From Nitrospirota bacterium (GTDB taxonomy: Bacteria; Nitrospirota; Thermodesulfovibrionia; Thermodesulfovibrionales; UBA1546): a stretch of DNA of 64,000 bases. Both the position numbers and the translations under genes were made by a program. Within the stretch, counting starts at the first letter, position 1, and each line of letters opens with the position of its first letter. Location of the stretch: NCBI GenBank assembly GCA_016195565.1, contig JACPZK010000011.1:13097-77096 (forward strand), read 5' to 3'. The notes below the pieces were generated by a model. The model made no database searches and was not told the DNA's origin. It worked only from the letters and a program-made list of their open reading frames with translations. Below are positions 9,584 through 64,000 of this stretch, one piece after another.

Positions 9584-10183
9584 ATGAAAGTGTCAGGTAT
9601 CGGATTATTAAAAAAACTTTTCACTTTTAACTTTTCACCTCCCCATCCCCCCCTTACTAAGGGGGGGCGAGGGGGGGGCAACAAAGGTTTCACCCTCATA
9701 GAAACAGTAATCGTAATGGTCATTGCAGTTATCCTCGCTGCCGTGGTTGCCGTCGGATGGAGTCCTTTTGACACAATAAAACTCTACAATGCAAAGCGAA
9801 AAGTCGCCGCTGACATAAGATACTCCCAGAAACTTGCAATCTCATCACAGCAGAGGTGCGGAGTTTTCAGGAACAGCGCAACAGCTTACACAGTATTTGA
9901 ACAAGGCAGCACCGCTGACCCTGCGCCAAGTTCAGGGGATGGATGCTCCACAGATGCATCAAATAATTTTGTTGTTGATTTTAGCGCAGGCAGATGCAGT
10001 GATTACAGCGGAGTTACAACCACATTCACCACGTCCGTAGCAAATACAATATACTTCAACTCTCTCGGCACGCCTGTTGACGCCGCAGGAACAGCGATTG
10101 CAGGCAACCAGACTGTAACAGTCACTTTTAATGGCAGCAGGGATATAACCATAGACGCAGGCACAGGAAGGGTGAGTTACTAA
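9584..10183 (+). CDS. prepilin-type minor pilin/pseudopilin (GspH/FimT-like) with 35-aa leader
   Basis: KG|FTLIETVIVMVIAVILA cleavage/methylation motif; the leader contains a heptamer array plus C7/G7/G8 tracts. Confidence 0.75.
   Translation: MKVSGIGLLKKLFTFNFSPPHPPLTKGGRGGGNKGFTLIETVIVMVIAVILAAVVAVGWSPFDTIKLYNAKRKVAADIRYSQKLAISSQQRCGVFRNSATAYTVFEQGSTADPAPSSGDGCSTDASNNFVVDFSAGRCSDYSGVTTTFTTSVANTIYFNSLGTPVDAAGTAIAGNQTVTVTFNGSRDITIDAGTGRVSY
9616..9638. repeat. heptamer array (ACTTTTC ACTTTTA ACTTTTC ..), right-arm type only
   Basis: three or more tandem ACT-anchored 7-mers inside the prepilin leader. Confidence 0.8.
9647..9667. repeat. GC hairpin C7-TTACTAA-G7 (followed by CGA-G8)
   Basis: perfect 7-bp C/G stem; homopolymer tracts at 9647-9653, 9661-9667, 9671-9678. 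Confidence 0.85.
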
Positions 10184-10836
10184 TGAAAAAGTTAAGAGTT
10201 ATGAGTTTAGAGTTAAAAGTTAAAGACATCCTCAGAAAACTTTTCACTTTTAACTTTTCACTTTTAACTTCTAAAAGAGGTTTTACCCTCATTGAGATAT
10301 TGCTGATAATCATAGTTGTTTCAATCGCAATACCCACACTTTTAATTATGGTGGGGCAGGAAGCTAAGTTCGGGGTAGATGCTGAGATAAGAGTCACCGC
10401 AACAAATGTTGCACAGCAATTGCTTGAAGAGATAAAGGCAAAATGCTTTGATGAGACTTCCGTGTCCGGAACAACATGCATACAGACCGCAGCCGCTTCA
10501 ACAACGCTCGGGCCTGAGGCAGGAGAGACAGCGTTATCCTTATACGACGATGTTGACGACTTCAATGATTTGGCGCCGGCAAGTTTAGGAACTACTCCGT
10601 GCACCGACACAGTTACTGTCAATGGTATTGGATTCACAAGGCAGGCTGTGGCCTGCTATGTGAATCCCGGCAATCTCAACAGATGCGTGGATACTGCCCC
10701 TGTGGCGGGAAGCTGCAATAGGACCATTGCAAGCGGAAGCCAAACAGATTACAAAAATATAACCGTAACAGTCACCGCGCCTTCTGACTCCGGGGGCGGC
10801 TCTGTCACGCTGACAACAGTGATGACGAATTACTAA
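10183..10836 (+). CDS. prepilin-type minor pilin (PilV-like) with long leader
   Basis: RG|FTLIEILLIIIVVSIA motif; start overlaps the upstream stop (TAATG). Confidence 0.75.
   Translation: MKKLRVMSLELKVKDILRKLFTFNFSLLTSKRGFTLIEILLIIIVVSIAIPTLLIMVGQEAKFGVDAEIRVTATNVAQQLLEEIKAKCFDETSVSGTTCIQTAAASTTLGPEAGETALSLYDDVDDFNDLAPASLGTTPCTDTVTVNGIGFTRQAVACYVNPGNLNRCVDTAPVAGSCNRTIASGSQTDYKNITVTVTAPSDSGGGSVTLTTVMTNY
10190..10273. repeat. paired heptamer array: 5 x AGTTNNN, 14-nt spacer, 5 x ACTTTTN
   Basis: units phased by hand at 10190-10224 and 10239-10273; the arms are reverse complements. Confidence 0.9.
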
Positions 10837-10837
10837 G

Positions 10838-11413
10838 ATGAGAGTTAAAAGTTTAAAGTTTAAAGTTAAAAGTTCTTTGAAGAAACTCTTCACTCCTCAC
10901 TCTTCACTCTTCACTTGTAAAAATGGCGTTACGCTTATTGAGCTTGTCATAGTAATGGTTCTGGCAGCCATTGTTGCCGTTGTTGTGGCTAATGCCCTGT
11001 CAACGGGGGTTAAGGGAAACCTTGTGACAGACTACCGCAAAGAGGCGCTTGATCAGGCAAGGGTTGCGATGGAGAGGATGAGGAGAGAAATAAGGAATCT
11101 GAATAATAGCGCGAGCGTAACCACAGGAATCGCAACACAATTCTGTTTTACGGACACGGAATCATTGCTGATAGATTACAGTTATTCAAGTCCTAATATC
11201 ACCCGCGACACTGGCAATTGTGCTGCCGGAGGCGGGGCAACGCTTTCAACGAGTATAACTGCGTTTTCATTCGTTTATCTCAGGGCAGATGGAGTTACTG
11301 TTGATTCACCATTCTCCGCTGCAACCACAAAGCTTATAAGAATAATTTTGACCGCTAACATCTCAGGCGAAAGCGTTCAGCTTCAGACAGAGGTCTGGCC
11401 GCGGAATTTGTGA
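10838..11413 (+). CDS. prepilin-type minor pilin (PilW-like) with long leader
   Basis: NG|VTLIELVIVMVLAAIVA motif; EALDQARVAMERMRREIR region typical of PilW-like proteins. Confidence 0.7.
   Translation: MRVKSLKFKVKSSLKKLFTPHSSLFTCKNGVTLIELVIVMVLAAIVAVVVANALSTGVKGNLVTDYRKEALDQARVAMERMRREIRNLNNSASVTTGIATQFCFTDTESLLIDYSYSSPNITRDTGNCAAGGGATLSTSITAFSFVYLRADGVTVDSPFSAATTKLIRIILTANISGESVQLQTEVWPRNL
10843..10919. repeat. paired heptamer array: 5 x AGTTNNN, 7-nt spacer, 5 x ACTYYTC
   Basis: units phased at 10843-10877 and 10885-10919. Confidence 0.9.
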
Positions 11414-15892: not shown

Positions 15893-17026
15893 TTATCCTG
15901 CATTGACAAATCTGCCGCCTTTTATAAGCGCTGTCCTGATGCCGCCTTTATGAATCAATGTCACGGTGGGCCTGAAGAACACAAAGTCCTGATGAAACGG
16001 CGTGCTGACATTTCCTCCGAATGAACTGTTGTCACCAAGCGCAATATGAATCGTGCCGAGGATTTTTTCCGATTCAAGAATATTGTCAGGCCTTTTCGCC
16101 ATATCATTGGTGCCTATGCCGAGTTCCGCTATATTTGCATTTTCAATGCGCTCTGACAGTTTTGCTCTCAGATAACCGGCGTATTCCTCATCACCTGATA
16201 CCTCTTTAACAAATCCGTTTTTTACTGTTAATGTCACAGGTGATTTTAATTGCCTCGTAGGCGCAAACTCAAGGACCAGCCGACCTTCTGCCGTGCCTTC
16301 CAACGGCGCAAGATATACCTCGCCTGCCGGAAGATTTCCGAATGAACCCGGCGCTGTGAGAAGCCCGGTGTCTGATTCTGCCTTCCTGCCTTTTTTTGAA
16401 AATGAAATAGAGGTGCCGTTAGGCGTCTCTATCTCTACAGCCTCAGCCTTATCTACAATTCTCGCAATGCCCCTGGTCCTTCTGTCAATCAGTCTCCAGT
16501 TTACGTTCATTGCGCCCTCAAGCATCGCCGCATCAAACAACGGCATGCTGGCATAACGTGTTTTGCATATCCTTGTCAGAAGGTCCCTGAACCTCGTATG
16601 GCTTGTAGAATAATTTGAAAGCGCAATGACAGCATTCACAGCATACTTTTTATGGCGGGCTATAATTTCTTCTGCCCTTCTCATATCCGAATCATCAGCT
16701 TTTTTATTTATGAGGCGGGCTGACAGCTTTTGCGCCTTCAGCTCATTGAATGCCTTTTCGCCGAATGCCATTGCCCATAGTTCTTTAGGAGGCTCTGCGC
16801 CGTGGCTGCCTGTGGCAGGATATTCATGATAAAGAATCTTTTTGCAGAAACCTTTCCCTGTCTCAGCGATAAGGATGGCTATGTCGCGCAGTCTTTCCCT
16901 TCTGCATCTGTCTGAATCCTCTATGAACTCTTCATTAAATGGCACATCTGTGAATACAAGAACACTCTCTGATTTTTTGACTCTTAGGTTAACGCTGAAT
17001 ATGTTCCTTAGCGTCTTTGTCGTCAA
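15893..17026 (-). CDS. aminopeptidase, probably M29 (AmpS/AmpT-like) family
   Basis: AELGIGTN and GTIHIALGDN..GGNVSTPFHQD regions resemble M29 motifs as I recall them. Confidence 0.5.
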   Translation of the reverse strand: MTTKTLRNIFSVNLRVKKSESVLVFTDVPFNEEFIEDSDRCRRERLRDIAILIAETGKGFCKKILYHEYPATGSHGAEPPKELWAMAFGEKAFNELKAQKLSARLINKKADDSDMRRAEEIIARHKKYAVNAVIALSNYSTSHTRFRDLLTRICKTRYASMPLFDAAMLEGAMNVNWRLIDRRTRGIARIVDKAEAVEIETPNGTSISFSKKGRKAESDTGLLTAPGSFGNLPAGEVYLAPLEGTAEGRLVLEFAPTRQLKSPVTLTVKNGFVKEVSGDEEYAGYLRAKLSERIENANIAELGIGTNDMAKRPDNILESEKILGTIHIALGDNSSFGGNVSTPFHQDFVFFRPTVTLIHKGGIRTALIKGGRFVNAG

Positions 17027-18450
17027 ATCTCTTCTGCTTTAATCCGCGGGGTTATGAATATGAGAAGTTCTGTTTTATCCTTTGTTTTAGTCTCTTTCTT
17101 GAACAGCCATCCAATCAGAGGAATCCTGGAAAGTAATGGTACTCCAGCCTCTCCCTCTGTTTCTGTCTCTGTATAGATGCCGCCGATAACTATTGTCTCG
17201 CCGTTTTTAACAATGAGATTGGTCTGCGTCTCACGTGTGTTCTTAGGCGGACTTCCCTGAACACTGCGGCTAAAGTCAAATACATCCCTGGATGTCAAAA
17301 TCTTCAGAGATATCTGGTCGTCATTTATCACCCTTGGAGTAACTTTTAACTGCAACAGAGCTTCTTTTTCCGTAACACTCGTAGTAGTAGTCGTTCCAGA
17401 CGTACTCGATGTAGGAATAAGTATGCCTGTGCCGCTCTTGATATAAGCCTCCTGATTGTCAAGAACCATCACCTTCGGGCTTGACAGCGTCCTTGCACTC
17501 CCCTGAGTTTCAAGGGCTGATATCTGGAGGTCAAGTATCGCATTTTTTGTAAGAATACCTATGCCTATTGCTCCGCCGGAACCAAACCCAACCGCAGCCG
17601 GCAGATTTACATTCAAAGCGCTCCCTCCAAAACCAGCGCCTCCTGTTAATGGGATTGTCCCTGTAGTTGTCGTGCCGGGACCTGTAGTGCTTGATGGCAG
17701 CACCCCTACAGTGCCGGTAGTACCTGTTGTGCCGCCACCGGATGTGCCGCCACCAAATATATATGCATCACCGTTCCGGTACATCGTGCCCCACTGTATG
17801 CCCAATTCCCTGCTTGCATTTGTGCTGACCTCAACAATCTTTGCCTCTATCATAATCTGCTTTGTCTTTACATCCACCTGTTTCAAAAGCTGCGTAACCC
17901 TCTCTATTGCAGACGGAATATCCCTTATAACTACCATATTGCTCTTCAGGTCAGAGGCAATGGAACCCCTCTTGCTTAAGACCTTTGTAATAATTCCCTC
18001 AATGTCTTTAGCATTAGCGTATTTAACGGTTGCCGTATAGGTCGCAAGGTCTTCGTCTGCTCCCGAAGAAATCACTCTCACAACATTCCCATCCTTTATG
18101 TATGCAAAGCCCTTGCCCTTTAATATAGAATCAATAGCATCCCATAGAGGGACATTCCTGAGGCTGACTGTCACCTTGCCCGTAACTTTTTCGTCAATAA
18201 TTATGTTTATGCCGTGCTCCTGTCCCAGCGCCCTCAAAACATCGCTCAGTTCAACGTCCCTTAATTCCATTGAGATAGGAGCGCCTTTTTCATTGGCGTA
18301 AGAAGGTGAGAAGTAAGAAGTAAACAGCAAAATAAGAGCAGTAGCGCAGAAGCGCAGAAGCGCAGCAGTAAAAGATTCCTTCACTAAAGACTGCTGCTCT
18401 ATTGCTCTATTGCTCTGTTGCACCCTTGACCCCTCTTTCTGCATTCTCAT
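17023..18450 (-). CDS. pilQ: type IV pilus secretin PilQ
   Basis: secretin C-domain (VPLLSRIPLIGWLFK, ELLIFITPRI); G/T-rich linker; an alternative GTG start at 18384 would give the signal peptide MKESFTAALLRFCATALILLFTSYFSPSYA. Confidence 0.85.
   Translation of the reverse strand: MRMQKEGSRVQQSNRAIEQQSLVKESFTAALLRFCATALILLFTSYFSPSYANEKGAPISMELRDVELSDVLRALGQEHGINIIIDEKVTGKVTVSLRNVPLWDAIDSILKGKGFAYIKDGNVVRVISSGADEDLATYTATVKYANAKDIEGIITKVLSKRGSIASDLKSNMVVIRDIPSAIERVTQLLKQVDVKTKQIMIEAKIVEVSTNASRELGIQWGTMYRNGDAYIFGGGTSGGGTTGTTGTVGVLPSSTTGPGTTTTGTIPLTGGAGFGGSALNVNLPAAVGFGSGGAIGIGILTKNAILDLQISALETQGSARTLSSPKVMVLDNQEAYIKSGTGILIPTSSTSGTTTTTSVTEKEALLQLKVTPRVINDDQISLKILTSRDVFDFSRSVQGSPPKNTRETQTNLIVKNGETIVIGGIYTETETEGEAGVPLLSRIPLIGWLFKKETKTKDKTELLIFITPRIKAEEI
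18306..18422. repeat. triple array: 4x7 (GTGAGAA-type), 4x8 (GCAGNAGC), spacer, 4x8 (CTNNTGCT)
   Basis: units phased by hand; covers the first ~48 codons of pilQ. Confidence 0.85.
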
Positions 18451-19010
18451 TCCTTCGCCTCCTTATCCTCTTTTTTATCTTTACCTTTGTCATCCTTTTT
18501 ATCTTTCACCTCATCATCCATGGCGCTATCTCTACGGGTATCCAGCGCAAACTTCTCTACTCCAAGATAAAACCTTTTGCCATTTTTTTCAAGCGAGACC
18601 CTGTCTTTCGCTATATCCACTATCAGAAAATCATTGACCCTTTCATTCTTCCTGTAAAATCCGCCGTTTATTATTGCCACCGCCTTCTTTCCGTCAGAAA
18701 TTATACCGGTAATCTTCAAGCCTACAAGCATATCTTCTCTAAACGTCTTGCCTTTTAGTTTTGCTATCTTGTCTTCATACCGGATAAATGGGTCCCTGCC
18801 CCACTTTTCTTTTATCGGTTGTTCCAGCGCGTCAAGTTTTATATCCGAGAGGCTCTCAGCATGTGCAAGTGAGAAGTGAAAAGTTAAGAGTAAGATGAGC
18901 CCAGTAGCCCAGTAGCTCAGTAGGGCAGCAGTTAAAGAGAAAGTCTTTGCAGTTGTATCTTCCTGCTGCTCTATTGCTCTACTGCTCTGTTGCTCTATCA
19001 ACCCCTTCAT
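18447..19010 (-). CDS. pilP: PilP-like pilus assembly protein
   Basis: GRDPF motif, beta-rich C-domain, position between pilO and pilQ; K/D-rich tail. Confidence 0.6.
   Translation of the reverse strand: MKGLIEQQSSRAIEQQEDTTAKTFSLTAALLSYWATGLILLLTFHFSLAHAESLSDIKLDALEQPIKEKWGRDPFIRYEDKIAKLKGKTFREDMLVGLKITGIISDGKKAVAIINGGFYRKNERVNDFLIVDIAKDRVSLEKNGKRFYLGVEKFALDTRRDSAMDDEVKDKKDDKGKDKKEDKEAKE
18869..18994. repeat. triple array paralogous to 18306-18422 (4x7, 4x8 GCCCAGTA-type, spacer, 4x8 CTNNTGCT)
   Basis: the last block is 30/32 identical to 18391-18422; the other blocks differ in sequence but keep period and unit number. Confidence 0.85.
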
Positions 19011-19555
19011 TCCTTTTTCCTCAGATACGTCACTGCTTTCAGCAAAGCTACGCCTGAAGGATACAGTGCAGCGTTTGTCTCAAATTTAAGTTCCTGTATA
19101 AGAAATAATTTATGCCTTGTTTCAAGAATCTTAATGAAATCATACAACTCCCTAAACTTTACCCTCAGTTCGATCTTTACCCTTAATTCTATAAATTTAT
19201 TTTTATGCTCAAAACCTTCAGGCGCTATGGATACAAAATCAACATTTGCAATAGTAGCCTCCCTGCTTATAGCCGCTAACATTCCTGAAAGATCTTCCGC
19301 CTCCGGAAGCGTAATCTTTTCTGCGACAGGTTCCTTCGGGAAAGCGGCCTGTGATGCCAATGCTGCATTTGCTGCCTCTATCTCTTTCTTTAAATTCTGA
19401 ATCGCCTGTTTTTTGTTCTTAACACTTACGGATGAAGGCGAATAAAGCAGCATGTATGGAACAATAACGATTATTACTGTAAGCGTTACTATAGCAATCA
19501 GCCTTTCCCTCTGCGAAAGGCTTTCTATCTTACTTTTAATAGCTTTTATGTCCAT
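19007..19555 (-). CDS. pilO: PilO-like pilus assembly protein
   Basis: single N-terminal TM plus coiled coil, operon position. Confidence 0.6.
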   Translation of the reverse strand: MDIKAIKSKIESLSQRERLIAIVTLTVIIVIVPYMLLYSPSSVSVKNKKQAIQNLKKEIEAANAALASQAAFPKEPVAEKITLPEAEDLSGMLAAISREATIANVDFVSIAPEGFEHKNKFIELRVKIELRVKFRELYDFIKILETRHKLFLIQELKFETNAALYPSGVALLKAVTYLRKKE

Positions 19556-19584: not shown

Positions 19585-20124
19585 TCATGTCCATCTCATC
19601 TTTGCCTTCAGTTCAAAAGAAATATCCTTGGCGCCTTTCTGCACAAAAACTATCTCAACATCATAGAAATAATGAGACAGCTCAAGCGCGGATATAAAAT
19701 TTGCAACGCCGAGTTGTGCCGCTGAAAATCCTTTTATGTTCATATGCTTTACACCTTTTTCTTCCCGCGATTCAATGGAGGAAAGCCATACATCCTCCGG
19801 CACAACAACTGAGATAGCGCTGAGTGTCTGACTCCATTTTGGAGCCTTCTCCATTGCAATCAATATTTCCTTGTCCACCAACAAAGACGGGGCAACAGTA
19901 ACAGCAGAGAGGGGCTTTATCTGCTGCTGCAGTCCTATTTTCTGTTTATTCAGCTTGTCCATCTCAGCGCCAAGCTTCCTGGCGTTAATAATATTCAAAA
20001 GCCAGAGTCCCATAATTACAACTATATAAACTGAAAGCCCTGCAAGCAGATAATAAAACCAGCCTTTCTTTGCAGGAGCGCCTGCCTTCACCTCAACCTG
20101 CAGAAGATTTAATGTTTCTTTCAT
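19585..20124 (-). CDS. pilN: PilN-like pilus assembly protein
   Basis: N-terminal LNLLQ (INLLP-like) motif, single TM, operon position. Confidence 0.65.
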   Translation of the reverse strand: MKETLNLLQVEVKAGAPAKKGWFYYLLAGLSVYIVVIMGLWLLNIINARKLGAEMDKLNKQKIGLQQQIKPLSAVTVAPSLLVDKEILIAMEKAPKWSQTLSAISVVVPEDVWLSSIESREEKGVKHMNIKGFSAAQLGVANFISALELSHYFYDVEIVFVQKGAKDISFELKAKMRWT

Positions 20125-21074
20125 GAAGCCCTCTTCGCAAGGCCGATTGCCACAGAGAATCGGGGGCCAAGCGGCCTCAGGCTTTCGTCCTTCATAATAA
20201 GGTTATCAAACGGGTTTGGAACACTAACAGGGATATCAAGCATTTGAGAAAAATAATCCCGAACAGCATGATTGATCGCAACACCGCCTGTGAGAATAAC
20301 CTCAGAAAATACCTTCTCTTTAAAAGTTGCCTTGTAATAATCTATTGAAAGGAAAATCTCTCTCAAAAACTGATTCAGCGCCTCTTTCATTCTCTCTGCA
20401 GGGCCGTTCATCATGATATCATCAATCTCTCCTTCAGGGAACCCTTCGCTTATAAGCTGGTTTTTTATTTGTTCGCCTCCCAGTTCAACCGTCCTTGTCA
20501 GCCGTACGGATTCCGACCTCATTATGTCTATCTCCATGCTTCGCGCCCCTATGTCAAGCACTATTATGTTGCCTGAACCGTGCAATGGAAGCGCCCTTAT
20601 AAGGCACAAAGGATTTACATCAACTGCCACAACCTTAAGGCCGGCTTCCTTAAAAGGAGATATATAGCGCCGGACATTTTTCCTCTCGGCAGAGGCAAAG
20701 GTAACAACAATGCCATCCGCAGCCGGGGCTGCTATATAATCATAGACAGCTTCTTCCTGCGGATAAGGCAGCTGCCGTTTTATCTCCCACTTAACAGCTT
20801 CTTTTAATTCGCCCTTGGGCATAGGAGGCAGGTTTATCGTCCTTATAAATGAAAGGTGTCCCGGAATATTAACTACTGTATCTTTGCCAACAATATTTAT
20901 TTCTTTGAAGAAATTTTTCAGTTTGTTTATCAGAAGAGCTTCTTCTTCCCAATCAGAGAAGGGGATATCCATAAATGCGGCGAGAGAAATTTTTTTACCG
21001 TTAAGTCCAATAACTTTAACCGAACCGTCGCCAAGATCCACCCCTAAGGGAGCAGGCTTGAACAATTCAAACAT
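20121..21074 (-). CDS. pilM: type IV pilus assembly ATPase-fold protein PilM
   Basis: actin-like fold translation (GVDLGDGSVKV.., LDIGARS.., LTGGVA). Confidence 0.85.
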   Translation of the reverse strand: MFELFKPAPLGVDLGDGSVKVIGLNGKKISLAAFMDIPFSDWEEEALLINKLKNFFKEINIVGKDTVVNIPGHLSFIRTINLPPMPKGELKEAVKWEIKRQLPYPQEEAVYDYIAAPAADGIVVTFASAERKNVRRYISPFKEAGLKVVAVDVNPLCLIRALPLHGSGNIIVLDIGARSMEIDIMRSESVRLTRTVELGGEQIKNQLISEGFPEGEIDDIMMNGPAERMKEALNQFLREIFLSIDYYKATFKEKVFSEVILTGGVAINHAVRDYFSQMLDIPVSVPNPFDNLIMKDESLRPLGPRFSVAIGLAKRAS

Positions 21075-21752: not shown

Positions 21753-21828
21753 GGGCGGTTAGCTCAGCTGGGAGAGCGCCACGTTCGCAACGTGGAAGTC
21801 GGGGGTTCGAATCCCCTACCGTCCACCA
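21753..21828 (+). tRNA. tRNA-Ala (anticodon CGC), CCA encoded
   Basis: hand-folded cloverleaf 7/4/5/5 bp; anticodon loop TTCGCAA; G3:U70 identity pair; TTCGAAT T-loop; T-run follows. Confidence 0.9.
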
Positions 21829-27499: not shown

Positions 27500-28107
27500 C
27501 TGATAAAAGACCGCTGATTATAGGCATCGGCAGCAGCCACAGCGGAGCCGGCAAGACAACGGTGGCAGAAGCGCTGCTTAAACACCTGACAAAAGAGCGT
27601 TCAGCGTTCAGCGTTCAGCGTTCAGAGGGAAAAAATAAAAATTCATCACTCGTCACTGATAAATGGGGCGCAATCAAATATACAAAAACTGCCATTTACG
27701 CCTCAATAATTGAGGACCCTGAGACATTAACGCAGGAAAGCAAAGATACTGCAAGGCTCATCAACGCAGGCGCCGAAAAAGTGCTGTGGGTTCAATCGCC
27801 TCCCGAAGAACTCAAAGAGGTTCTTCCCATGGCTGTTGACAGGCTTTCTAATCTCAGAGGGATAATAGTGGAAGGCAACAGCGCAATTGAGTTTTTGAAA
27901 CCTGATATTGTAATATTTGTATCTGGAAGACATGGCGGCTCTTTAAAGAAAAGCGCTGAAAGAGTTCTTGAAACTGCAGACATAATTTTATTTGAGGATG
28001 AACCTTCCATGAAATTGCCTGAAAAGGCAAAGAGATTTAAGGTTGTTTTTACACCGATGTCAGGATTTGGTGAATGCCTGGATTACATACAGAAATTGCT
28101 GAAATGA
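27496..28107 (+). CDS. MobB-like P-loop protein; expected start codon is ATA
   Basis: P-loop GSSHSGAGKTT lies upstream of the first canonical start (GTG 27562); frame is open from 27442; KDTARLINAGAEKV resembles the MobB core; 66-nt array insertion. Confidence 0.55.
   Translation: MTDKRPLIIGIGSSHSGAGKTTVAEALLKHLTKERSAFSVQRSEGKNKNSSLVTDKWGAIKYTKTAIYASIIEDPETLTQESKDTARLINAGAEKVLWVQSPPEELKEVLPMAVDRLSNLRGIIVEGNSAIEFLKPDIVIFVSGRHGGSLKKSAERVLETADIILFEDEPSMKLPEKAKRFKVVFTPMSGFGECLDYIQKLLK
27596..27661. repeat. paired heptamer array in frame: 4 x AGCGTTC, spacer, 3 x A(C/T)TNNTN
   Basis: 66 nt = 22 codons (RSAFSVQRSEGKNKNSSLVTDK) between the P-loop helix and the next strand. Confidence 0.85.
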
Positions 28108-48056: not shown

Positions 48057-48445
48057 TGAAAAAGTTTGCTGTATTCAGTTTAATCATGCTTTTAATAGCG
48101 GGCATTGCTTATGCAAAAGATTATGAAGTAAAGAAAAAGGCAGGGGAATACGATGTGGAGATAAAAATCGACAAAAACCCGCCTGTAGTGGGCGACAATA
48201 ATATCACAGTAGAAATTAAAGATGCATCGGGTAAATATGTGACCGATGCAAAGGTGAAGGTTGAATATTCCATGCCTGCCATGCCTGGTATGCCTGCCTC
48301 GAACTACAAGACAGACACAGAACTCAAAGGCTATGAATACAAGGCAAAGATGAATCTCTCCATGTCAGGTGCGTGGAATGTCGCAGTAAAAATAACAAGG
48401 AGCGGTAAAACCACAACGGTAAAATTCAATGCGGATGCGCACTAA
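48053..48445 (+). CDS. secreted YtkA/FixH-like Met-rich metal-binding protein
   Basis: signal peptide; MPAMPGMPAS; Ig-like beta pattern. Confidence 0.55.
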   Translation: MMKKFAVFSLIMLLIAGIAYAKDYEVKKKAGEYDVEIKIDKNPPVVGDNNITVEIKDASGKYVTDAKVKVEYSMPAMPGMPASNYKTDTELKGYEYKAKMNLSMSGAWNVAVKITRSGKTTTVKFNADAH

Positions 48446-49835
48446 GATAGAAGATAAGAGGATAAGAAGTTTGGAAGATAAGAATATTACCTCCAATGCA
48501 CAACTTCTCAACTTCTCAACTTCTCAATTTCTAATTCTTTTACTGTTTACTGTCTACTGTTTACTGTCTACTGAAAATGCTTTTGCCGAAGAACTGAAAC
48601 TTCAGCCCCTGATAGACGAGGCGCTGAAGAGCAATCATGACCTCATTGTATCAGGATTAAAGGTATCCACTTCAAAATACAAGATACCTCAGGTACAGAG
48701 CCTTCCTGACCCCATGTTCATGTTCGGCTATCAGAATGAAGGATACGACAGATACACTTATGGCGAGATGCAGGGCGCACAGTGGATGTTCTCTGCATCT
48801 CAGATGTTCCCATTCCCCGGGAAGCTATCGTTAAAGGGAGAGATGGCTCTTAGAGATTCTGAAAGCCTAAAGGCATTATACGAATCCGCAAAGCTCACAA
48901 CAATAGCGAGAATAAAAGAACTTTACTATGACCTGTTCCTCACCTATAGAGACATTGACATCATTAAAGACAAGAATTCGCTTTTCTCAAGGATAGAGGA
49001 TGCAGCCATTGCAAGATACTCATCAGGCATGGCGCCGCAGCAGGAAGTATTAATGGCTCAAACAGAAAAATACATGCTGCTTGAAAAAGAGGAGATGCTG
49101 AAACAAAAGCTGCGATCCATAGAGGCGATGCTAAACACAACCGTTGGCCGGGATGTTAATTCGCCTCTCGGAAGGCCTGTTGAACCTGTTTATGTTTCGT
49201 ATAACCCAAGCATGGATGAACTTCTTAAAATGTCATACTCAAATTCTCCTCTGATAAAATCCAGAGAAAAGATGATTGCCTCGGCAAAGGCAAAGGTTAA
49301 TATGGCTGAGAAGGAATATTATCCTGATTTCACCATTGCCGGCTCAGTCTTTGAGCGGAGGGGAGAGTTCAAAGATATGTGGAGCCTCACAACCACAATC
49401 AACATACCTATTTTTTATAAAACAAAACAGAAAATGGCTGTGCTTGAGGCAGAATCAGCCCTTTCAGAGGCAAAACACGAACTTGAGGCGGTTAAGTTAA
49501 TGCTGTCATCCAATATAAGAGAAAACTACTCTATGATTAAGGCTGCGGAAAAATTAACGGAGCTGTACAGGAATGGACTTATACCCAAGGCATATCAGGA
49601 TTTTGAACTCGCAATTGCCGGATATGTAACAGGAAAAGTCGAGGCAATAACTGTCATAACAAGGCTGAAATCACTTATTGACTATGAGCTTTTATACTGG
49701 GGGCAGTTTACGGAAAGAGAGAAGGCAACAGCGAGGCTTGAGGCGATAACAGCAGTCAGCAATCAGCACTCAGTACGCCCTGCTCTTCAGAATAAAATTG
49801 AGGCGAGCGTCATTCAGGGAGAAAAAGAAAAATGA
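48429..49835 (+). CDS. TolC-family outer membrane efflux protein (CusC position)
   Basis: two OEP repeats; the N-terminal 55 aa are encoded by arrays. Confidence 0.8.
   Translation: MRMRTKIEDKRIRSLEDKNITSNAQLLNFSTSQFLILLLFTVYCLLSTENAFAEELKLQPLIDEALKSNHDLIVSGLKVSTSKYKIPQVQSLPDPMFMFGYQNEGYDRYTYGEMQGAQWMFSASQMFPFPGKLSLKGEMALRDSESLKALYESAKLTTIARIKELYYDLFLTYRDIDIIKDKNSLFSRIEDAAIARYSSGMAPQQEVLMAQTEKYMLLEKEEMLKQKLRSIEAMLNTTVGRDVNSPLGRPVEPVYVSYNPSMDELLKMSYSNSPLIKSREKMIASAKAKVNMAEKEYYPDFTIAGSVFERRGEFKDMWSLTTTINIPIFYKTKQKMAVLEAESALSEAKHELEAVKLMLSSNIRENYSMIKAAEKLTELYRNGLIPKAYQDFELAIAGYVTGKVEAITVITRLKSLIDYELLYWGQFTEREKATARLEAITAVSNQHSVRPALQNKIEASVIQGEKEK
48444..48576. repeat. triple array: 5 x 8 (AGATAAGA-like), 16-nt spacer, 3-5 x 8 (ACTTCTCA), 5 x 7 (ACTGNNT)
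   Basis: units phased at 48444-48483, 48503-48541, 48542-48576. Confidence 0.9.
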
Positions 49836-54818: not shown

Positions 54819-57800
54819 ATGGCAGACATTAATTCTTTTAGAGAAAAACTCCAGTCCTTGATCGCAAAGTTCGAGAAGGACAAAGCCCACTATGTCTCGA
54901 AAGGCTACCCCGAAGCTCAAGTAAGGCTGGATTTCCTTAATCCATTTTTCAAAGCCCTCGGCTGGGACATAGAAAACAAGGCGCAGAAGCCTCCGCATGA
55001 AAGGGATGTTATAGTTGAGCTTTCTCCTGAAACAACAGGAAGGCCGGATTATAATTTCAGGATTAACGGGGCAACAAAATTTTTTGTCGAGGCAAAGGCC
55101 CCGTCTGTGGCCCTTGATGACATAAACCACATACTTCAGGCAAAGAGCTATGCGTGGTCCACAAAAGAGGTCTATTTCGTAGTCCTCACTGATTTTGAAG
55201 AGTTCAGGCTTTATGACGCATCTTTAAAGCCAAATCCGAAATTCCCTGATGAAGGATTAATCCTCGGCCTCAAACATACTGATTACCTCAATAACATAGA
55301 AAAACTTTGGGAGCTTTCAAAAGAGCGCATTGAACAGGGTTCTTTGGAAGCCCTATTGCCAAAAGACACAAAGAGCAAGAGGCTCAGGATTCCGCCTGAC
55401 AAATCATTCCTTGAAGATTTAACAGAATGGAGGACAGAACTCGCAAAGGACCTTCATAAGAGGAATCCAGAATTCGATGTGAAGTTATTGAATGATGTGG
55501 TCCAGAAACTCCTCGACAGGATTATCTTCATAAGGATTGCAGAGGACAGAAGGATACGGCCTGATAAGGAATTAATGGAGATTGTGGCCCTCTGGAAAGA
55601 AGAAGGCAAGAGAAAATCCATAATGAGCCATCTCCTTGACCTCTTCCATGAAGTGAACGATGATTTAAACGGCGATATTTTTAAACCTCACGCATGTGAG
55701 AGAGCAGATGTTGATTCAAACCTCATTGCAGAGATTATAGAGAACCTCTATTTCCCGAAGAGCAGATACAGGTTTGACGCCATCGGCGTTGAACTCTTGG
55801 GAAGCATATATGAGCGTTATCTTGGAAGCACGATAAGGGTAACTCCGCAGAGGGTAAAGGTTGAGGAAAAGCCTGAGGTAAGAAAGGCAGGCGGCGTTTA
55901 TTATACTCCGAAATACATTGTTGATTACATTGTCAAAAATACAGTCGGAAAACTCATCGAGGGCAAGACACCGAAACAGATAGAAAAGATTAAGATACTT
56001 GACCCTGCTTGCGGCTCAGGTTCTTTTTTGCTTGGCGCATATCAATACCTGCTGGATTATCATCTTGAATATTATCGTAAGCATACCAAAGAGGCACAGA
56101 CACAATTCTTTGACTTTTACCATAAAGTAGGGCCGGAGGACCTGGCGCTTCCCTTACGCACAAAGGCGATGATTTTAAGAAACAACATCTTCGGAGTTGA
56201 TATTGACCCGCAGGCTGTAGAGATAACAATGATGAGCCTATACCTGAAAGCCCTCGAAGGCGAGCGTGGAATGCTTCCAAAAAAGCAGCACCTTCTTCCT
56301 CCTTTGAGCAACAATATCAAATGCGGGAACAGTCTTATCGGTTATGACATATTGGATCAGGGAAATCTTTTTGACGATGAAACAAAGAGCAGGATTAATC
56401 CCTTTGACTGGAATTCAAAGTCAGTTGGGTTTGGGGAGATAATGGAGAGCGGAGGGTTCGATGTGATTATCGGCAATCCGCCGTATGTAAGAATTCAGGC
56501 AATGAAAGAATGGGCACCGGATGAAGTCGCACATTATAAACAGCATTATGTTTCAGCAAGCAAAGGGAACTATGATATTTATGTGATTTTTGTCGAGAAG
56601 GGATTAAGTCTTCTCAATCCGAAAGGCCGCTTCGGCTTTATCTTGCCGCACAAGTTTTTCCAAACTCAATATGGAGAGCCTCTGAGAGGCATCATTTCTA
56701 AAGGAAAGCATTTATCAGAGGTCGTTCATTTCGGCGATCAACAAGTATTTGAGGGTGCAACGACCTATACCTGTCTGCTTCTTCTCGATAAATCACCCAC
56801 CAAAAAGTTGAATTTTGTGAAGGTTCAAGACCTGTCACTCTGGCGTGTTACTGGTCAAGCCATTAGAGGAACCATTCCTTCCGCTGATATCGGTGCATCG
56901 GAGTGGAATCTTGCGATAGGGGATGCAGCTACGATATTCAACCGTTTAAAGAAAATGCCCGTAAAACTAAAAGACATTGCAGATATATTTGTCGGGCTTC
57001 AGACGGATGCAGATGATGTGTACATCTTAGAAGAAAGACAAAGAAAAGACGGACAGGTGTTGTGTTATTCCAAGGCAACCGGACAAACCCATTGGCTTGA
57101 AGACAATCACTTGAAAATGTTTGTCAAAGGATCGTTGAATGTAAGAAGGTATGAGCTTGTTAATGTTAATAAGCGCCTAATATTTCCATACAAAATAGTT
57201 GATGGGAAATCCCAGCTTATCGATGCTGTTCAATATGGAAAGGACTTTCCATTGACGTGGCAATACTTAGTCGATAATAAACCGCTGCTCATACGGCGGA
57301 ATAAAGGGAAAATTCAGCGCACTGAATGGTATGGATACGTTTATAAGAAAAATCACACGCGATTGGCAACACCTAAGCTCCTTGTGCCTTCAATTGGAAC
57401 AGGTAGTTGTTTTGCAGCCGACATAAGTGGAGAATACTATTTTGTCGGGAGCGGAGGCGGTGGCGGTGGCGGCTATGGCATTTCCTTGGCAGCTACACAG
57501 AACATATCTTATTCTTATCTATTAGGTCTCCTAAACTCTGCCCTCTTAAGCAACTATTTAAAATCGATTAGTACGACTTTTAGAGGTGGCTACATTGCTC
57601 TAAATCGTCAGTACATAGAGCACCTTCCCATCCGCACCATTGACTTCAATAACCTCACTGAAAAAGCCATTCACGACAAACTCGTCTCCCTCGTTGACCG
57701 TATGCTCGACCTGCACAAAAAGAAAAACGCCCTTCCGCCGTCCTCAGAGCGCGAAAAGATAGAGCGTGAGATTGCAATTACCGATGAGAAAATTGATGAT

Positions 57801-57878
57801 ATTGTGTATGGTCTTTATGGGGTGACGGAGGAGGGAAAAAGGATAATTCAAGATTCAAGATTGAAAATTCAAAATTAA
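54819..57878 (+). CDS. single-chain Type IIG restriction-modification enzyme (PD-ExK nuclease + N6-adenine MTase + TRD)
   Basis: N-terminal RPDY..x13..VEAK; motif I LDPACGSGSFL; motif IV IGNPPYV; long C-terminal specificity-like region. Confidence 0.8.
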   Translation: MADINSFREKLQSLIAKFEKDKAHYVSKGYPEAQVRLDFLNPFFKALGWDIENKAQKPPHERDVIVELSPETTGRPDYNFRINGATKFFVEAKAPSVALDDINHILQAKSYAWSTKEVYFVVLTDFEEFRLYDASLKPNPKFPDEGLILGLKHTDYLNNIEKLWELSKERIEQGSLEALLPKDTKSKRLRIPPDKSFLEDLTEWRTELAKDLHKRNPEFDVKLLNDVVQKLLDRIIFIRIAEDRRIRPDKELMEIVALWKEEGKRKSIMSHLLDLFHEVNDDLNGDIFKPHACERADVDSNLIAEIIENLYFPKSRYRFDAIGVELLGSIYERYLGSTIRVTPQRVKVEEKPEVRKAGGVYYTPKYIVDYIVKNTVGKLIEGKTPKQIEKIKILDPACGSGSFLLGAYQYLLDYHLEYYRKHTKEAQTQFFDFYHKVGPEDLALPLRTKAMILRNNIFGVDIDPQAVEITMMSLYLKALEGERGMLPKKQHLLPPLSNNIKCGNSLIGYDILDQGNLFDDETKSRINPFDWNSKSVGFGEIMESGGFDVIIGNPPYVRIQAMKEWAPDEVAHYKQHYVSASKGNYDIYVIFVEKGLSLLNPKGRFGFILPHKFFQTQYGEPLRGIISKGKHLSEVVHFGDQQVFEGATTYTCLLLLDKSPTKKLNFVKVQDLSLWRVTGQAIRGTIPSADIGASEWNLAIGDAATIFNRLKKMPVKLKDIADIFVGLQTDADDVYILEERQRKDGQVLCYSKATGQTHWLEDNHLKMFVKGSLNVRRYELVNVNKRLIFPYKIVDGKSQLIDAVQYGKDFPLTWQYLVDNKPLLIRRNKGKIQRTEWYGYVYKKNHTRLATPKLLVPSIGTGSCFAADISGEYYFVGSGGGGGGGYGISLAATQNISYSYLLGLLNSALLSNYLKSISTTFRGGYIALNRQYIEHLPIRTIDFNNLTEKAIHDKLVSLVDRMLDLHKKKNALPPSSEREKIEREIAITDEKIDDIVYGLYGVTEEGKRIIQDSRLKIQN

Positions 57879-57926
57879 AGATTAAGAATTCAAGGTTCAA
57901 AATAAATTTAAAATTCAAGATTCAAG
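57846..57926. repeat. direct heptamer array, about 12 x ATTCAAG-like units
   Basis: attcaag attcaag attgaaa attcaaa attaaag attaaga attcaag gttcaaa ... attcaag attcaag; the first units encode the R-M C-terminus and TAA. Confidence 0.9.
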
Positions 57927-57939
57927 AAAGGAGAAAAAC

Positions 57940-63510: not shown

Positions 63511-64000
63511 GATTGAATTAAGAAGGGCAAAAAGATTAAAAGGCGAAATTATTCCTCCTCCTGATAAATCCATATCTCACAGGGCAGTCATCCTCTCCTC
63601 TTTGGCAAAAGGCAGAAGCATTGTCAGAAATTTCCTCAGGGCTGAAGATACAATGAGCACGGTTAATGCATTCAGAAAACTCGGAGTGAAGATAGATGAA
63701 GGCAGGGGTCAAGGGGTCAAGGGGTCAAGGGGTCAAGAGAAAGAAAATGACATGGTAATTCACGGCAACGGCATACATGGGTTAAAAGAACCTGAAGATG
63801 TAATCGACTGCGGCAATTCAGGCACGACAGCAAGGCTGATGTCAGGCATACTTGCAGGGAATCAGTTTTTTTCCGTGCTTACTGGAGATGATTCTTTAAG
63901 GCAAAGACCCATGGCAAGGGTTATAAATCCCCTTAAAGAGATGGGCGCAGAGATTTCCGGAAGAGACGGTGATAAATATCTTCCGATGGCAATAAAGGGA
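63500..64000 (+). CDS. aroA: 3-phosphoshikimate 1-carboxyvinyltransferase (EPSP synthase), 5' partial, runs off the window
   Basis: PPDKSISHRA, GNSGTTARL, LRQRPM motifs; not in the ORF track because it is open-ended. Confidence 0.9.
   Translation, partial: MSDRIELRRAKRLKGEIIPPPDKSISHRAVILSSLAKGRSIVRNFLRAEDTMSTVNAFRKLGVKIDEGRGQGVKGSRGQEKENDMVIHGNGIHGLKEPEDVIDCGNSGTTARLMSGILAGNQFFSVLTGDDSLRQRPMARVINPLKEMGAEISGRDGDKYLPMAIKG
63705..63736. repeat. octamer array in frame: 4 x GGGGTCAA
   Basis: perfect tandem copies encoding GQGVKGSRGQ within aroA. Confidence 0.9.

What the first reader, a model, noticed from the sequence alone, without database searches (positions are those of the whole stretch)
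18306..19010. pilQ and pilP-like genes start with paralogous triple arrays that encode an N-terminal extension plus the signal peptide
Both genes begin with the same architecture, read on the plus strand as 4x7, 4x8, a spacer of about 21-32 nt, then 4x8. The block nearest the start codon is 30/32 identical between the two loci (CTGCTGCT CTATTGCT CTA[T/C]TGCT CTGTTGC[A/T]). The middle blocks differ in sequence (GCAGAAGC-type versus GCCCAGTA-type) but keep period and unit number. Translated, they give (Q)QS(N/S)RAIEQQ...F.TAALL...AT.LILL.T..FS..(Y/H)A. So the hydrophobic core of each signal peptide is array-encoded. pilQ has an alternative GTG (18384) in the spacer that would give a normal-length signal peptide. 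The pilP-like gene has no such alternative. Either a repeat element has been co-opted as a signal-peptide source, or an intercistronic hairpin has been absorbed into ORFs.
Basis: seen in the sequence. Interest (0 to 1): 0.55.

Follow-up and report, generated by a model that had tools for sequence, protein, structure and literature searches.

The report
Repeat arrays encode pilus-gene signal peptides
In this groundwater Nitrospirota genome, the short 7- and 8-base repeat arrays that fill many gene junctions have been absorbed into the starts of two pilus genes, where they now encode the cleavable export signal, which sister strains have rebuilt from quite different repeats.

Summary
pilQ (17023-18450, minus strand) and the pilP-position gene (18447-19010, minus strand) each begin with the same roughly 140-nt element. 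It has a purine-rich octamer array, a 20-31 nt loop, a partly complementary pyrimidine-rich octamer array, and then a pyrimidine-rich heptamer array. The two copies are about 72-80% identical, and 30/32 in the block nearest the start.

The element is one member of a genome-wide class. The window holds 27 arrays of period 7-8, against 0-2 in shuffles, and most begin at the stop codon of the upstream cistron.

Where the next start codon overlaps that stop, the array lies inside the ORF. This is so for pilP, pilQ, three prepilins and a TolC gene. There the purine arm codes a polar extension and the pyrimidine arms code the hydrophobic core.

PilQ, PilP and TolC orthologues keep the start codon (for PilQ and PilP also the ribosome-binding site) and the mature N-terminus. 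The leader between them is rebuilt from many unrelated arrays and is almost always in frame. Array-free distant relatives have plain short signal peptides.

In the relatives' pilQ leaders, two alleles have array-unit changes that break the frame, which resembles the Neisseria opa coding repeats.

I read this as junction repeats co-opted as leader peptides. It is a new variant of known kinds and is moderately interesting.

The parts
17023..18450 (-). pilQ secretin ORF (475 aa). The family model matches from residue 56 onward, so the first 52 residues are the leader.
   Evidence: TIGR02515 IV_pilus_PilQ scores 353.9 bits against a cut-off of 284, matching residues 56-470. The ORF is 100% identical to an NCBI Nitrospirae MAG PilQ.
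18458..18464 (-). Shine-Dalgarno sequence AAGGAGG ahead of the pilQ ATG (18450-18448). That ATG overlaps the pilP stop as ATGA.
   Evidence: Read from the sequence. GGAGGCGAAGGAATG is conserved in most clade loci, whatever leader follows it.
18391..18433 (-). pilQ arm 1: a purine-rich octamer array (GGGGTCAA / CAGAGCAA / TAGAGCAA units). It is translated as GSRVQQSNRAIEQQ.
   Evidence: Only one of the three frames is free of stops, and it is the frame in use. The TAG of the unit reads CAG at exactly the in-frame positions.
18371..18390 (-). pilQ loop, carrying the in-frame alternative start GTG 18384-18382. No Shine-Dalgarno sequence precedes it.
   Evidence: The same loop type occurs in pilP of L028 and L030.
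18336..18370 (-). pilQ arm 2: a pyrimidine-rich octamer array (CTTCTGCG units), 72% complementary to arm 1. It is translated as TAALLRFCATA.
   Evidence: (pair I2).
18298..18323 (-). pilQ heptamer array (ACTTCTT / ACTTCTC). It is translated as FTSYFSPSY. The predicted signal-peptidase site is SYA|NEKG, with the A52 codon at 18297-18295.
   Evidence: The mature N-terminus NEKGAPISMELRDVE is conserved in orthologues.
18447..19010 (-). ORF at the pilP position (187 aa). Its ATG 19010-19008 overlaps the pilO stop as ATGA, and GAGGAAAAAGGA lies upstream.
   Evidence: It sits between pilO and pilQ. It has only sub-threshold similarity to the GspC HR region and no Pfam PilP hit.
18963..19005 (-). pilP arm 1: a purine-rich octamer array, translated as GLIEQQSSRAIEQQ.
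18932..18962 (-). pilP loop (GAAGATACAACTGCAAAGAC...). It contains no start codon.
   Evidence: The same loop is found in pilQ of L028, L029 and L091.
18897..18931 (-). pilP arm 2: an octamer array (CTACTGRG units), 82% complementary to arm 1. It is translated as TAALLSYWATG.
   Evidence: pair I4. The RNA fold is -38.3 kcal/mol with z = -3.6.
18863..18896 (-). pilP linker and heptamer array (ACTTTTC / ACTTCTC), translated as LILLLTFHFSLAH. The predicted cleavage site is AHA|ESLSD, with the A51 codon at 18860-18858.
   Evidence: The mature N-terminus ESLSDIKLDAL is conserved.
10187..10274 (+). Same class: a heptamer hairpin (AAAAGTT x5 / AACTTTT x5) forming the roughly 33-aa leader of a prepilin (PilV-like).
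   Evidence: The N-methylation motif lies at residues 30-49 or from residue 32. There is no alternative start before G|FTLIE.
10843..10915 (+). Same class: heptamer arrays (AGTTAAA / ACTCTTC) forming the leader of a second prepilin.
9616..9638 (+). Same class: a pyrimidine heptamer array (ACTTTTC) in the leader of a third prepilin (GspH/ComGD-like).
48444..48573 (+). Same 8-8-7 triple architecture (AAGATAAG x5, CAACTTCT x4, TTTACTG x5) forming the leader of a TolC/OEP outer-membrane protein.
   Evidence: The OEP domain starts at residue 58. Orthologue leaders are hypervariable.

Best explanation
**What the elements are.** The two elements are paralogous copies of a lineage-specific junction repeat. 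This Thermodesulfovibrionales-type lineage carries many short tandem arrays of 7- or 8-nt units. They are usually arranged as a purine-rich array followed by a partly complementary pyrimidine-rich array, which makes an RNA-level hairpin. They begin at or just after the stop codon of a cistron.

**How they came to be coding.** At the pilO/pilP and pilP/pilQ junctions the next start codon overlaps the stop as ATGA, with the Shine-Dalgarno sequence inside the upstream gene. There is therefore no intergenic space, and the repeat lies inside the downstream ORF. It is tolerated there because the N-terminus of an exported protein is a leader that is cut off.

**How it works (inferred).**
1. Translation starts at the coupled ATG.
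2. The purine-rich arm and the loop give a long polar, net-positive n-region.
3. The pyrimidine-rich arm and the pyrimidine-rich heptamer array give the hydrophobic h-region.
4. The end of the heptamer array gives the c-region (SYA| or AHA|).
5. Signal peptidase I then releases the conserved mature proteins.

This hydropathy pattern follows from the genetic code. Codons with A in the second position are polar, and their complements with T in the second position are hydrophobic. A hairpin that runs purine-rich to pyrimidine-rich therefore reads like a signal peptide in any frame.

**How it evolves.** The leader changes by gain and loss of units, by exchange between the two copies 560 nt apart, and by recombination with other alleles. 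Selection keeps the frame open.

**Shown versus inferred.**
- Shown: the anatomy, the paralogy, the junction rule, the hypervariability of orthologues with the frame kept, and the hydropathy pattern.
- Inferred: which start codon pilQ uses, cleavage at the predicted sites, and any RNA-level role of the hairpin.
For: **Class and placement.**
- The window holds 27 arrays of period 7-8 with at least 3 copies, against 0-2 in 20 Markov shuffles.
- 11 of 16 window clusters begin within 40 nt of the stop codon of the upstream same-strand ORF, against 8% for random positions. In 13 other clade loci it is 21 of 41 against 9%.
- 9 of 9 paired clusters have the purine-rich arm first in the sense of transcription, on both strands.
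- Intergenic members fold well, with z from -3.0 to -4.8.
- Array density is about 2-10 per 10 kb in clade loci, against mostly 0-1 in loci of distant PilQ relatives.

**Translation of the arrays.**
- pilP has no start codon after arm 1. The prepilins have none before G|FTLIE.
- Each ATG has a strong Shine-Dalgarno sequence and an ATGA stop/start overlap.
- In about 28 clade loci the conserved Shine-Dalgarno sequence and ATG stay in frame with the conserved mature protein. This holds across 15 or more unrelated leader variants for pilQ and likewise for pilP.
- In arm 1 only the frame in use is free of stops. The unit's TAG reads CAG exactly where it would be in frame.
- L030 pilP carries an extra 24 nt, which is three octamers and stays in frame.

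**The signal peptide has been replaced.**
- Distant orthologues have short classical signal peptides.
- Some clade members have a core that is not array-coded, KILLLSFSLILALAFLSA.
- TolC orthologues show the same hypervariability. They include the KTVMR...THYALRIT type also seen in PilQ, and an SSRAVEQQ...ALLLSCAAAL type.

**Hydropathy.** Arm 1 averages a Kyte-Doolittle score of about -0.1 to -3.0, and arms 2 and 3 average +0.1 to +2.0, in nearly every frame.

**Paralogy and exchange.** The two loop types swap between pilP and pilQ among the window, L028 and L030.
Against: - The hairpin is weak in pilQ (z = -1.1), in the prepilins (-1.9 and +0.7) and in TolC (-0.7). Across orthologous pilQ leaders, z ranges from +2.7 to -4.0. 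RNA structure is therefore not a conserved requirement inside ORFs.
- pilQ could start at GTG 18384. In L028 and L029 the pilP ATG is out of frame, and only the loop GTG is in frame. NCBI annotates the TolC gene from an internal start that lies after arm 1. Translation of arm 1 is thus not proven for every gene.
- No SignalP run, proteomic data or expression data were available.
- My count of exported proteins rests on inspection and a hydropathy scan.
- About half of the exported proteins in the window have ordinary leaders with no arrays.
Confidence: 0.7

Rival explanations
1. The arrays are selected contingency (phase-variation) tracts. Slipped-strand gain or loss of 7- or 8-nt units in the leader-coding region would switch PilQ and PilP, and hence the pilus, on and off. 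This is how the CTCTT repeats work in Neisseria opa. A plausible advantage would be escape from pilus-dependent phages.
For: - The units are not multiples of 3 and lie in the 5' coding region.
- Unit numbers differ between relatives. The CTGTTCA-type array has 5 units in L007, 4 in L028 and 3 in L087.
- The L087-L089 pilQ allele was recovered on 7 contigs from at least 3 samples. It is exactly one heptamer unit short of an open frame.
- L004 has 2 GGGGTCAA units where L086 has 4, plus two extra heptamers, and its frame is broken.
- The opa precedent is described in PMC3960869.
Against: - The window's own arrays are short and degenerate, with only 2-3 perfect units. That is poor substrate for frequent slippage.
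- Most alleles are in frame.
- Other broken frames have ordinary causes. L090 looks like long-read homopolymer errors, L025 has 2x coverage, and L091 has a 1-nt loss outside the arrays.
- The same arrays are common at junctions of cytoplasmic genes, where no frame can be switched.
- L004 is more than one unit change away from an open frame.
Confidence: 0.15
2. This is partly a start-codon artefact. The arrays would be untranslated intercistronic hairpins, the real starts would lie downstream (for example GTG 18384), and the long N-terminal extensions would be open by accident.
For: - There is an in-frame GTG in the pilQ loop.
- L028 and L029 pilP can use only the loop GTG.
- NCBI's TolC model starts after arm 1.
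- Gene callers favour long ORFs.
Against: - The pilP-like gene and the three prepilins have no downstream start codon.
- Even from GTG 18384, the hydrophobic core is still coded by arm 2 and the heptamers.
- No Shine-Dalgarno sequence precedes the GTG, whereas AAGGAGG precedes the ATG.
- Fifteen or more unrelated leader variants all stay in frame with the upstream ATG. If they were untranslated, about one third would be expected to be in frame, before stop codons are even counted.
- Stop-capable triplets are altered only at the in-frame units.
Confidence: 0.1
3. The hairpin is retained for an RNA-level function inside the operon, and the coding role is secondary. That function could be enforcing translational coupling, setting the PilO:PilP:PilQ ratio, or acting as a processing or stability site.
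For: - The pilP element folds at -38.3 kcal/mol with z = -3.6, starting about 10 nt after the ATG.
- Intergenic relatives fold strongly.
- Arm polarity follows the direction of transcription in 9 of 9 pairs.
- The arrays track cistron ends.
Against: - Structure is weak or absent in pilQ, the prepilins, TolC and many orthologous leaders.
- Arm 2 differs between the two copies while arm 1 does not, with no compensating changes.
- There is no Rfam match.
- There is no terminator-like tail.
Confidence: 0.2
4. The similarity is due to chance or to an assembly artefact.
For: - Metagenome-assembled genomes can mis-assemble repeats.
- Some contigs end at the pilP/pilQ junction.
Against: - The same element was recovered in independent assemblies: L028, L029, L030, L091 and P0002-P0005.
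- The motif count is 6 against 0.1 expected.
- The arrays are shorter than a sequencing read.
Confidence: 0.02

Closest known systems
Neisseria opa genes: CTCTT coding repeats in the leader-peptide region (PMC3960869)
   Same: - A tandem repeat whose unit is not a multiple of 3 lies in the 5' coding region of an outer-membrane protein gene and itself encodes the hydrophobic part of the signal peptide.
- Changes in unit number shift the frame. Frame-broken alleles exist here in relatives (L087-L089, L004).
   Different: - opa has one long perfect pentamer tract with measured high-frequency switching.
- Here there are three short, degenerate 7/8-nt arrays, two of which form a hairpin.
- They belong to a genome-wide junction-repeat class that mostly lies outside ORFs.
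- Switching has not been shown.
Cyanobacterial STRR (short tandemly repeated repetitive) heptanucleotide arrays. This comparison rests on my own knowledge. Their use for fingerprinting appears in PMC5088731.
   Same: They are lineage-specific, multi-copy families of tandem heptamers scattered through the genome, mainly between genes, and their function is unknown.
   Different: - The phylum is different (Nitrospirota) and so are the unit sequences.
- Here 8-nt units are used as well, and the arrays are paired as purine/pyrimidine hairpins.
- The arrays are tied to cistron ends and are translated in several genes.
REP/BIME-type intercistronic palindromes of enterobacteria (own knowledge)
   Same: They are repeated hairpin-forming elements placed after stop codons within operons.
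   Different: - REPs are single imperfect palindromes of about 35 nt with a conserved consensus. They are not arrays of 7/8-nt units.
- I know of no case where a REP supplies a signal peptide.
Extended signal peptides: the ESPR of autotransporters and the long leaders of type IVb prepilins (own knowledge)
   Same: The architecture is a 25-30 aa polar N-terminal extension ahead of an otherwise normal signal or leader sequence on envelope proteins.
   Different: - ESPR is a conserved motif inherited with the protein.
- The extensions here are unrelated between close orthologues and are coded by repeats.
Poly-G tract in the signal-peptide-coding region of Neisseria pilC (own knowledge)
   Same: It is a slippage-prone tract in the leader-coding region of a type IV pilus component.
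   Different: It is a homopolymer, not a set of 7/8-nt arrays, and no hairpin or junction-repeat family is involved.

Membership tests
Sec signal peptide cleaved by signal peptidase I | A net-positive n-region | tested here: met
   In PilQ, residues 1-26 carry 5 K/R against 3 E. In PilP, K2, R11 and K22 precede the core. This was judged by inspection only.
Sec signal peptide cleaved by signal peptidase I | A hydrophobic h-region of about 10-20 residues | tested here: met
   The maximum 12-residue Kyte-Doolittle mean is 2.27 at residue 30 in PilQ and 2.18 at residue 37 in PilP.
Sec signal peptide cleaved by signal peptidase I | Small residues at -3 and -1, with the mature protein starting directly after | tested here: met
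   The sites are S-Y-A|NEKG and A-H-A|ESLSD. Conservation among orthologues begins exactly there.
Sec signal peptide cleaved by signal peptidase I | Cleavage or export demonstrated, or a trained predictor's score | not testable with these tools
   No SignalP and no proteomic data were available.
Slipped-strand phase-variable (contingency) locus, opa type | A tandem unit that is not a multiple of 3, inside the 5' coding region | tested here: met
   Arrays of 7 and 8 nt lie within codons 5-51.
Slipped-strand phase-variable (contingency) locus, opa type | Unit-number differences between strains that change the reading frame | tested here: inconclusive
   L087-L089 are one heptamer short and out of frame, and L004 is broken. 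For the window's own element type, the only length variant seen is +24 nt in frame, in L030.
Slipped-strand phase-variable (contingency) locus, opa type | A long, near-perfect repeat tract | tested here: not met
   The window arrays have 3.2-4.0 copies at 83-94% matches, with at most 2-3 perfect units.
Slipped-strand phase-variable (contingency) locus, opa type | Reversible, high-frequency switching within a population | not testable with these tools
   This needs raw reads or cultures.
Cyanobacterial STRR repeats | Dispersed multi-copy families of tandem heptamers, mostly intergenic | tested here: met
   There are 27 arrays, and the unit families AGTTAAR/ACTYTTM, AATTCAAG and AGTGACA each occur at several loci.
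Cyanobacterial STRR repeats | Cyanobacterial host and the STRR unit sequences | tested here: not met
   The host is a Nitrospirae/Thermodesulfovibrionales MAG, and the units differ.
REP/BIME elements | A hairpin placed after the stop codon of a cistron | tested here: met
REP/BIME elements | A conserved REP consensus and an associated RAYT transposase | not tested
   I did not search for a RAYT gene. The units are arrays, not a single palindrome.
Type IV pilus secretin PilQ | A match to the family model above its curated cut-off | tested here: met
   TIGR02515 scores 353.9 bits against 284.35, and the Secretin, Secretin_N and STN Pfam domains are present.
PilP | A match to the PilP family model | tested here: not met
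   There is no Pfam PilP hit at E <= 0.01. The only hits are sub-threshold GspC matches at E = 0.006-0.008.
PilP | A lipoprotein signal (lipobox with Cys) | tested here: not met
   There is no Cys before the predicted cleavage site, which is AHA|E.
PilP | A gene between pilO and pilQ in a pilMNOPQ operon | tested here: met
Any Rfam RNA family | A match at the family's gathering score | tested here: not met
   The only match in the window is a tRNA at 21753-21825.

The most novel reading that the evidence does not exclude
In this Thermodesulfovibrionales-type lineage, junction hairpins built from a purine-rich array followed by a pyrimidine-rich array would act as a recurring de novo source of signal and leader peptides. 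The purine arm would give the n-region and the pyrimidine arm the h-region. These leaders would be repeatedly replaced across unrelated envelope proteins: PilQ, PilP, minor pilins and TolC. As a side effect, single-unit slippage in them would give heritable on/off switching of the type IV pilus secretin in a free-living groundwater bacterium.
Probability: 0.35. Interest if true: 0.75.

Novelty: new variant of a known kind. Interest (0 to 1): 0.6.

Why it matters
**What it shows.** Signal peptides are usually thought of as slowly drifting parts of their proteins. Here the whole leader of several envelope proteins has been rebuilt, repeatedly and recently, from non-coding junction repeats, while the mature proteins stay 80-90% identical. 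The genetic code makes this easy, because a hairpin that runs purine-rich to pyrimidine-rich reads as polar and then hydrophobic in any frame.

**What it makes testable.**
- It gives a concrete route for the birth and turnover of targeting sequences.
- It raises the possibility of repeat-mediated switching of pili outside pathogens.

**Practical consequences.**
- Start-codon calls and signal-peptide predictions in these genomes need care.
- Assemblies can break at these repeats.

Tried and rejected
- **Database search with the 49-aa leader peptide.** I used it to look for other proteins that start with the same element. It returned a single 55-aa fragment, P0121, which is a frameshifted pilQ leader, so it says nothing about spread.
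- **Truncated PilQ models as "off" alleles.** Some do not hold up. P0013 (L090) shows homopolymer indels typical of long reads, and neighbouring genes are split too. P0268 (L093) is in fact in frame. P0249 (L091) has a 1-nt loss outside the arrays. L025 has 2x coverage.
- **RNA structure as a conserved feature of the leaders.** I rejected this as a general rule, because z-scores run from +2.7 to -4.0.
- **Known RNA families.** None matched.
- **Intrinsic terminators at the arrays.** Only one weak pattern match inside arm 2 of pilP, and the overall count does not exceed the shuffles.
- **Other copies of the ATAGAGCA element.** There are none in the window. In the fetched loci it occurs only at the same two genes.
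- **Literature searches.** Searches for heptanucleotide or tandem repeats in Nitrospirae or Thermodesulfovibrionales found nothing in the held library.
Full report
**1. Setting**

The window has 43.8% G+C. Its PilQ is 100% identical to a protein of a Nitrospirae (Thermodesulfovibrionales-type) metagenome-assembled genome (MAG). Related loci all come from Nitrospirae/Nitrospirota MAGs, several of them from groundwater.

The minus strand carries pilM (20121-21074), pilN (19585-20124), pilO (19007-19555), a 187-aa gene at the pilP position (18447-19010) and pilQ (17023-18450). A promoter-like site lies upstream of pilM at 21367-21339.

PilQ passes the curated TIGR02515 cut-off, and the match begins at residue 56. 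The pilP-position protein has no PilP model hit and no lipobox. It has only sub-threshold similarity to the GspC HR region, so it is "PilP-like" by position.

Both the pilO/pilP and the pilP/pilQ junctions are ATGA stop/start overlaps. The Shine-Dalgarno sequences (GAGGAAAAAGGA and AAGGAGGCGAAGGA) sit inside the upstream gene.

**2.

On the coding strand, each gene starts with the following parts in order:
- a purine-rich octamer array, in which GGGGTCAA-type units grade into CAGAGCAA/TAGAGCAA;
- a loop of 20 nt (pilQ) or 31 nt (pilP);
- a pyrimidine-rich octamer array, CTTCTGCG in pilQ and CTACTGRG in pilP;
- a pyrimidine-rich heptamer array (ACTTCTT / ACTTTTC / ACTTCTC).

The second array is 72% (pilQ) or 82% (pilP) complementary to the first, so the first two arrays are the arms of an imperfect hairpin. 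The two elements align at 72-81% identity, and at 30/32 in the block nearest the start. The shared motif occurs 6 times against 0.1 expected, and only at these two loci.

GTG 18384 is in frame in pilQ. The pilP-like gene has no start codon after TTG 19001.

**3. The elements belong to a genome-wide class of junction repeats**

TRF finds 27 arrays of period 7-8 with at least 3 copies in the window, against 0-2 in shuffles. They fall into a few unit families that each recur at several loci: AGTTAAR with its complement ACTYTTM, AATTCAAG, AGTGACA and GGGGTCAA. The heptamer array of pilQ and pilP belongs to the commonest pyrimidine family.

Eleven of 16 window clusters begin within 40 nt of the stop codon of the upstream same-strand ORF, against 8% for random positions. 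In 13 other loci of the clade it is 21 of 41 against 9%.

In all 9 paired clusters the purine-rich arm comes first in the direction of transcription, on both strands. Intergenic members fold significantly better than shuffles, with z from -3.0 to -4.8.

Loci of close PilQ relatives carry about 2-10 such arrays per 10 kb. Loci of distant relatives carry mostly 0-1. No Rfam family matches.

**4. Where arrays lie inside ORFs, the proteins are exported**

Six clusters lie in the first 55 or so codons of a gene. The genes are pilQ, pilP-like, three prepilins and a TolC/OEP gene.
- The prepilins have their N-methylation motif starting at residues 28-35 and no start codon between the arrays and G|FTLIE.
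- The TolC/OEP gene has the same 8-8-7 triple architecture, and its OEP domain starts at residue 58.

Only one cluster lies inside a cytoplasmic ORF, a P-loop protein at 27596. By my inspection, about half of the exported proteins in the window have ordinary array-free signal peptides. The arrays are therefore not a general export device. Leaders are the places in ORFs where the arrays persist.

**5. Orthologue comparison**

For PilQ, the Shine-Dalgarno sequence with its ATG (MRMQ...) and the mature protein from NEKGAPISMELRDVE onward are conserved at roughly 75-95% identity. The 40-80 codons between them differ completely among close relatives. Examples are QQSNRAIEQQ...TAALLRFCATA, KTVMRKTSSVMRF...THYALRIT, GSRGQGVKGSRG, KIQNSKFKIQ, DKRCKMQDARCK and KVSECQSVRAS. 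There are also in-frame insertions of other hairpin repeats of the SLRG...LAMT and PPL.KGG types.

PilP shows the same pattern ahead of ESLSDIKLDAL. So does TolC ahead of AEELKLQPLIDEAL, and one TolC leader type is shared with PilQ.

Distant, array-poor relatives have short classical signal peptides such as MKKLFAAMLLLFVLSHAAYA.

**6. The arrays are translated**

- pilP and the prepilins have no alternative start codon.
- Fifteen or more unrelated leader variants keep the conserved upstream ATG in frame with the mature protein. Untranslated spacers would do so about one time in three, before stop codons are counted.
- In each in-ORF purine arm only one frame is free of stops, and it is the frame in use.
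- The octamer's TAG reads CAG exactly at the in-frame units. The prepilin heptamer's TAA reads TTA at its in-frame unit.
- L030 pilP has three extra octamers, 24 nt, and stays in frame.

For pilQ, the loop GTG remains a possible additional start. No Shine-Dalgarno sequence precedes it. In L028 and L029 pilP, the loop GTG is the only in-frame start.

**7. Why a hairpin reads like a signal peptide**

In nearly every frame, the purine arms translate to hydrophilic peptides, with mean Kyte-Doolittle scores of about -0.1 to -3.0. The pyrimidine arms translate to hydrophobic peptides, at +0.1 to +2.0.

This follows from the genetic code. Codons with A in the second position are polar, and their complements with T in the second position are hydrophobic.

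With the purine arm first, translation gives a polar, positively charged n-region followed by an h-region. The heptamer array ends in SYA| or AHA|, which fits the -3/-1 rule, and conservation of the mature protein begins exactly there.

**8. Turnover**

- The two loop types are exchanged between pilP and pilQ in different strains. The window has loop A in pilQ and loop B in pilP. L028 has the reverse. L030 has loop A in both. This points to exchange between the copies 560 nt apart.
- The window's pilQ leader combines the SRAIEQQ-type 5' part with the 3' heptamer part seen in L086.
- Unit numbers vary between lineages.
- L087-L089 carry a pilQ allele found on 7 contigs from at least 3 samples. 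It is exactly one CTGTTCA-type unit short of an open frame. L004 is broken after losing two octamers and gaining two heptamers.
- Other truncated gene models have trivial causes.

Slippage therefore does make and break frames here. The window's own arrays are short and degenerate, however, and within-population switching has not been tested.

**9. Verdict**

The most likely account is that junction array hairpins have been absorbed into ORFs where starts overlap stops. There they are tolerated and used as cleavable leaders, and they are being replaced rapidly.

The closest known parallels are the following:
- the Neisseria opa CTCTT coding repeats in the leader-peptide-coding region (PMC3960869);
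- cyanobacterial STRR heptamer arrays (own knowledge);
- REP-type intercistronic hairpins (own knowledge);
- extended signal peptides (own knowledge).

None of these combines these features. I found no description of this in the held literature. I rate it a new variant of known kinds, with an interest score of about 0.6.

Noticed in passing
window 27596-27625: A heptamer array (AGCGTTC x4.3) lies in frame inside a cytoplasmic P-loop ORF (GAGKTT motif, MobB-like), coding ...KERSAFSVQRSEGK.... It is the only in-ORF array in the window that is not in a leader peptide.
   Followed up: partly
window 9640-9680; also PilQ P0030 and TolC P0126, P0128, P0133 and others: A G/C-rich hairpin (CCCCCCCTTACTAAGGGGGGG) is translated as PPLTKGGRGG inside the leader of the prepilin at 9584. 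The same peptide type (PPQSPLVKGGSKGG) recurs in the leaders of PilQ and TolC orthologues. It is a second repeat class found in leaders.
   Followed up: partly
L009, L041 (pilQ); L033, L030, L038, L041 (pilP); window ORFs starting at 12844 and 47658: Larger hairpin repeats are inserted in frame in leader regions. They translate as SLRG...LAMT, IPAFAGMT or FWTSQNDK. In the window they extend two ORFs upstream of their likely signal peptides.
   Followed up: no
window 57846-57927: This is the longest array, about 12 copies of ATTCAAG. It starts inside the 3' end of ORF 54819-57878, so that protein's C-terminal tail is array-coded.
   Followed up: no
window 18461-18519: The K/D-rich C-terminal tail of the pilP-like protein (KDKKDDKGKDKKEDKEAKE) is itself a 24-nt tandem repeat of 2.5 copies. 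Its length varies among orthologues.
   Followed up: no
window 21753-21825 (+) and 21367-21339 (-): A tRNA gene lies just upstream of the pil operon. A near-consensus sigma-70-type promoter (11 of 12 matches) faces pilM.
   Followed up: no
L092, L093, L094: Three metagenome contigs end at or near the pilP/pilQ junction. This suggests that the paralogous arrays break short-read assemblies.
   Followed up: no
L091 positions 547-800: In a strain with the same SRAIEQQ-type leader, pilQ is split by a 1-nt loss (CAAATG to CAATG) just after the signal peptide. The protein occurs on contigs from two samples, but only one of them covers the site, so it may be a real pseudogene or off allele. The change is not array-mediated.
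   Followed up: partly
window 63704-63737: Four perfect copies of AGGGGTCA lie in an intergenic region. The same unit forms the PilQ leader of L086 (GSRGQGVKGSRG), and its remnants start arm 1 of both window elements.
   Followed up: partly
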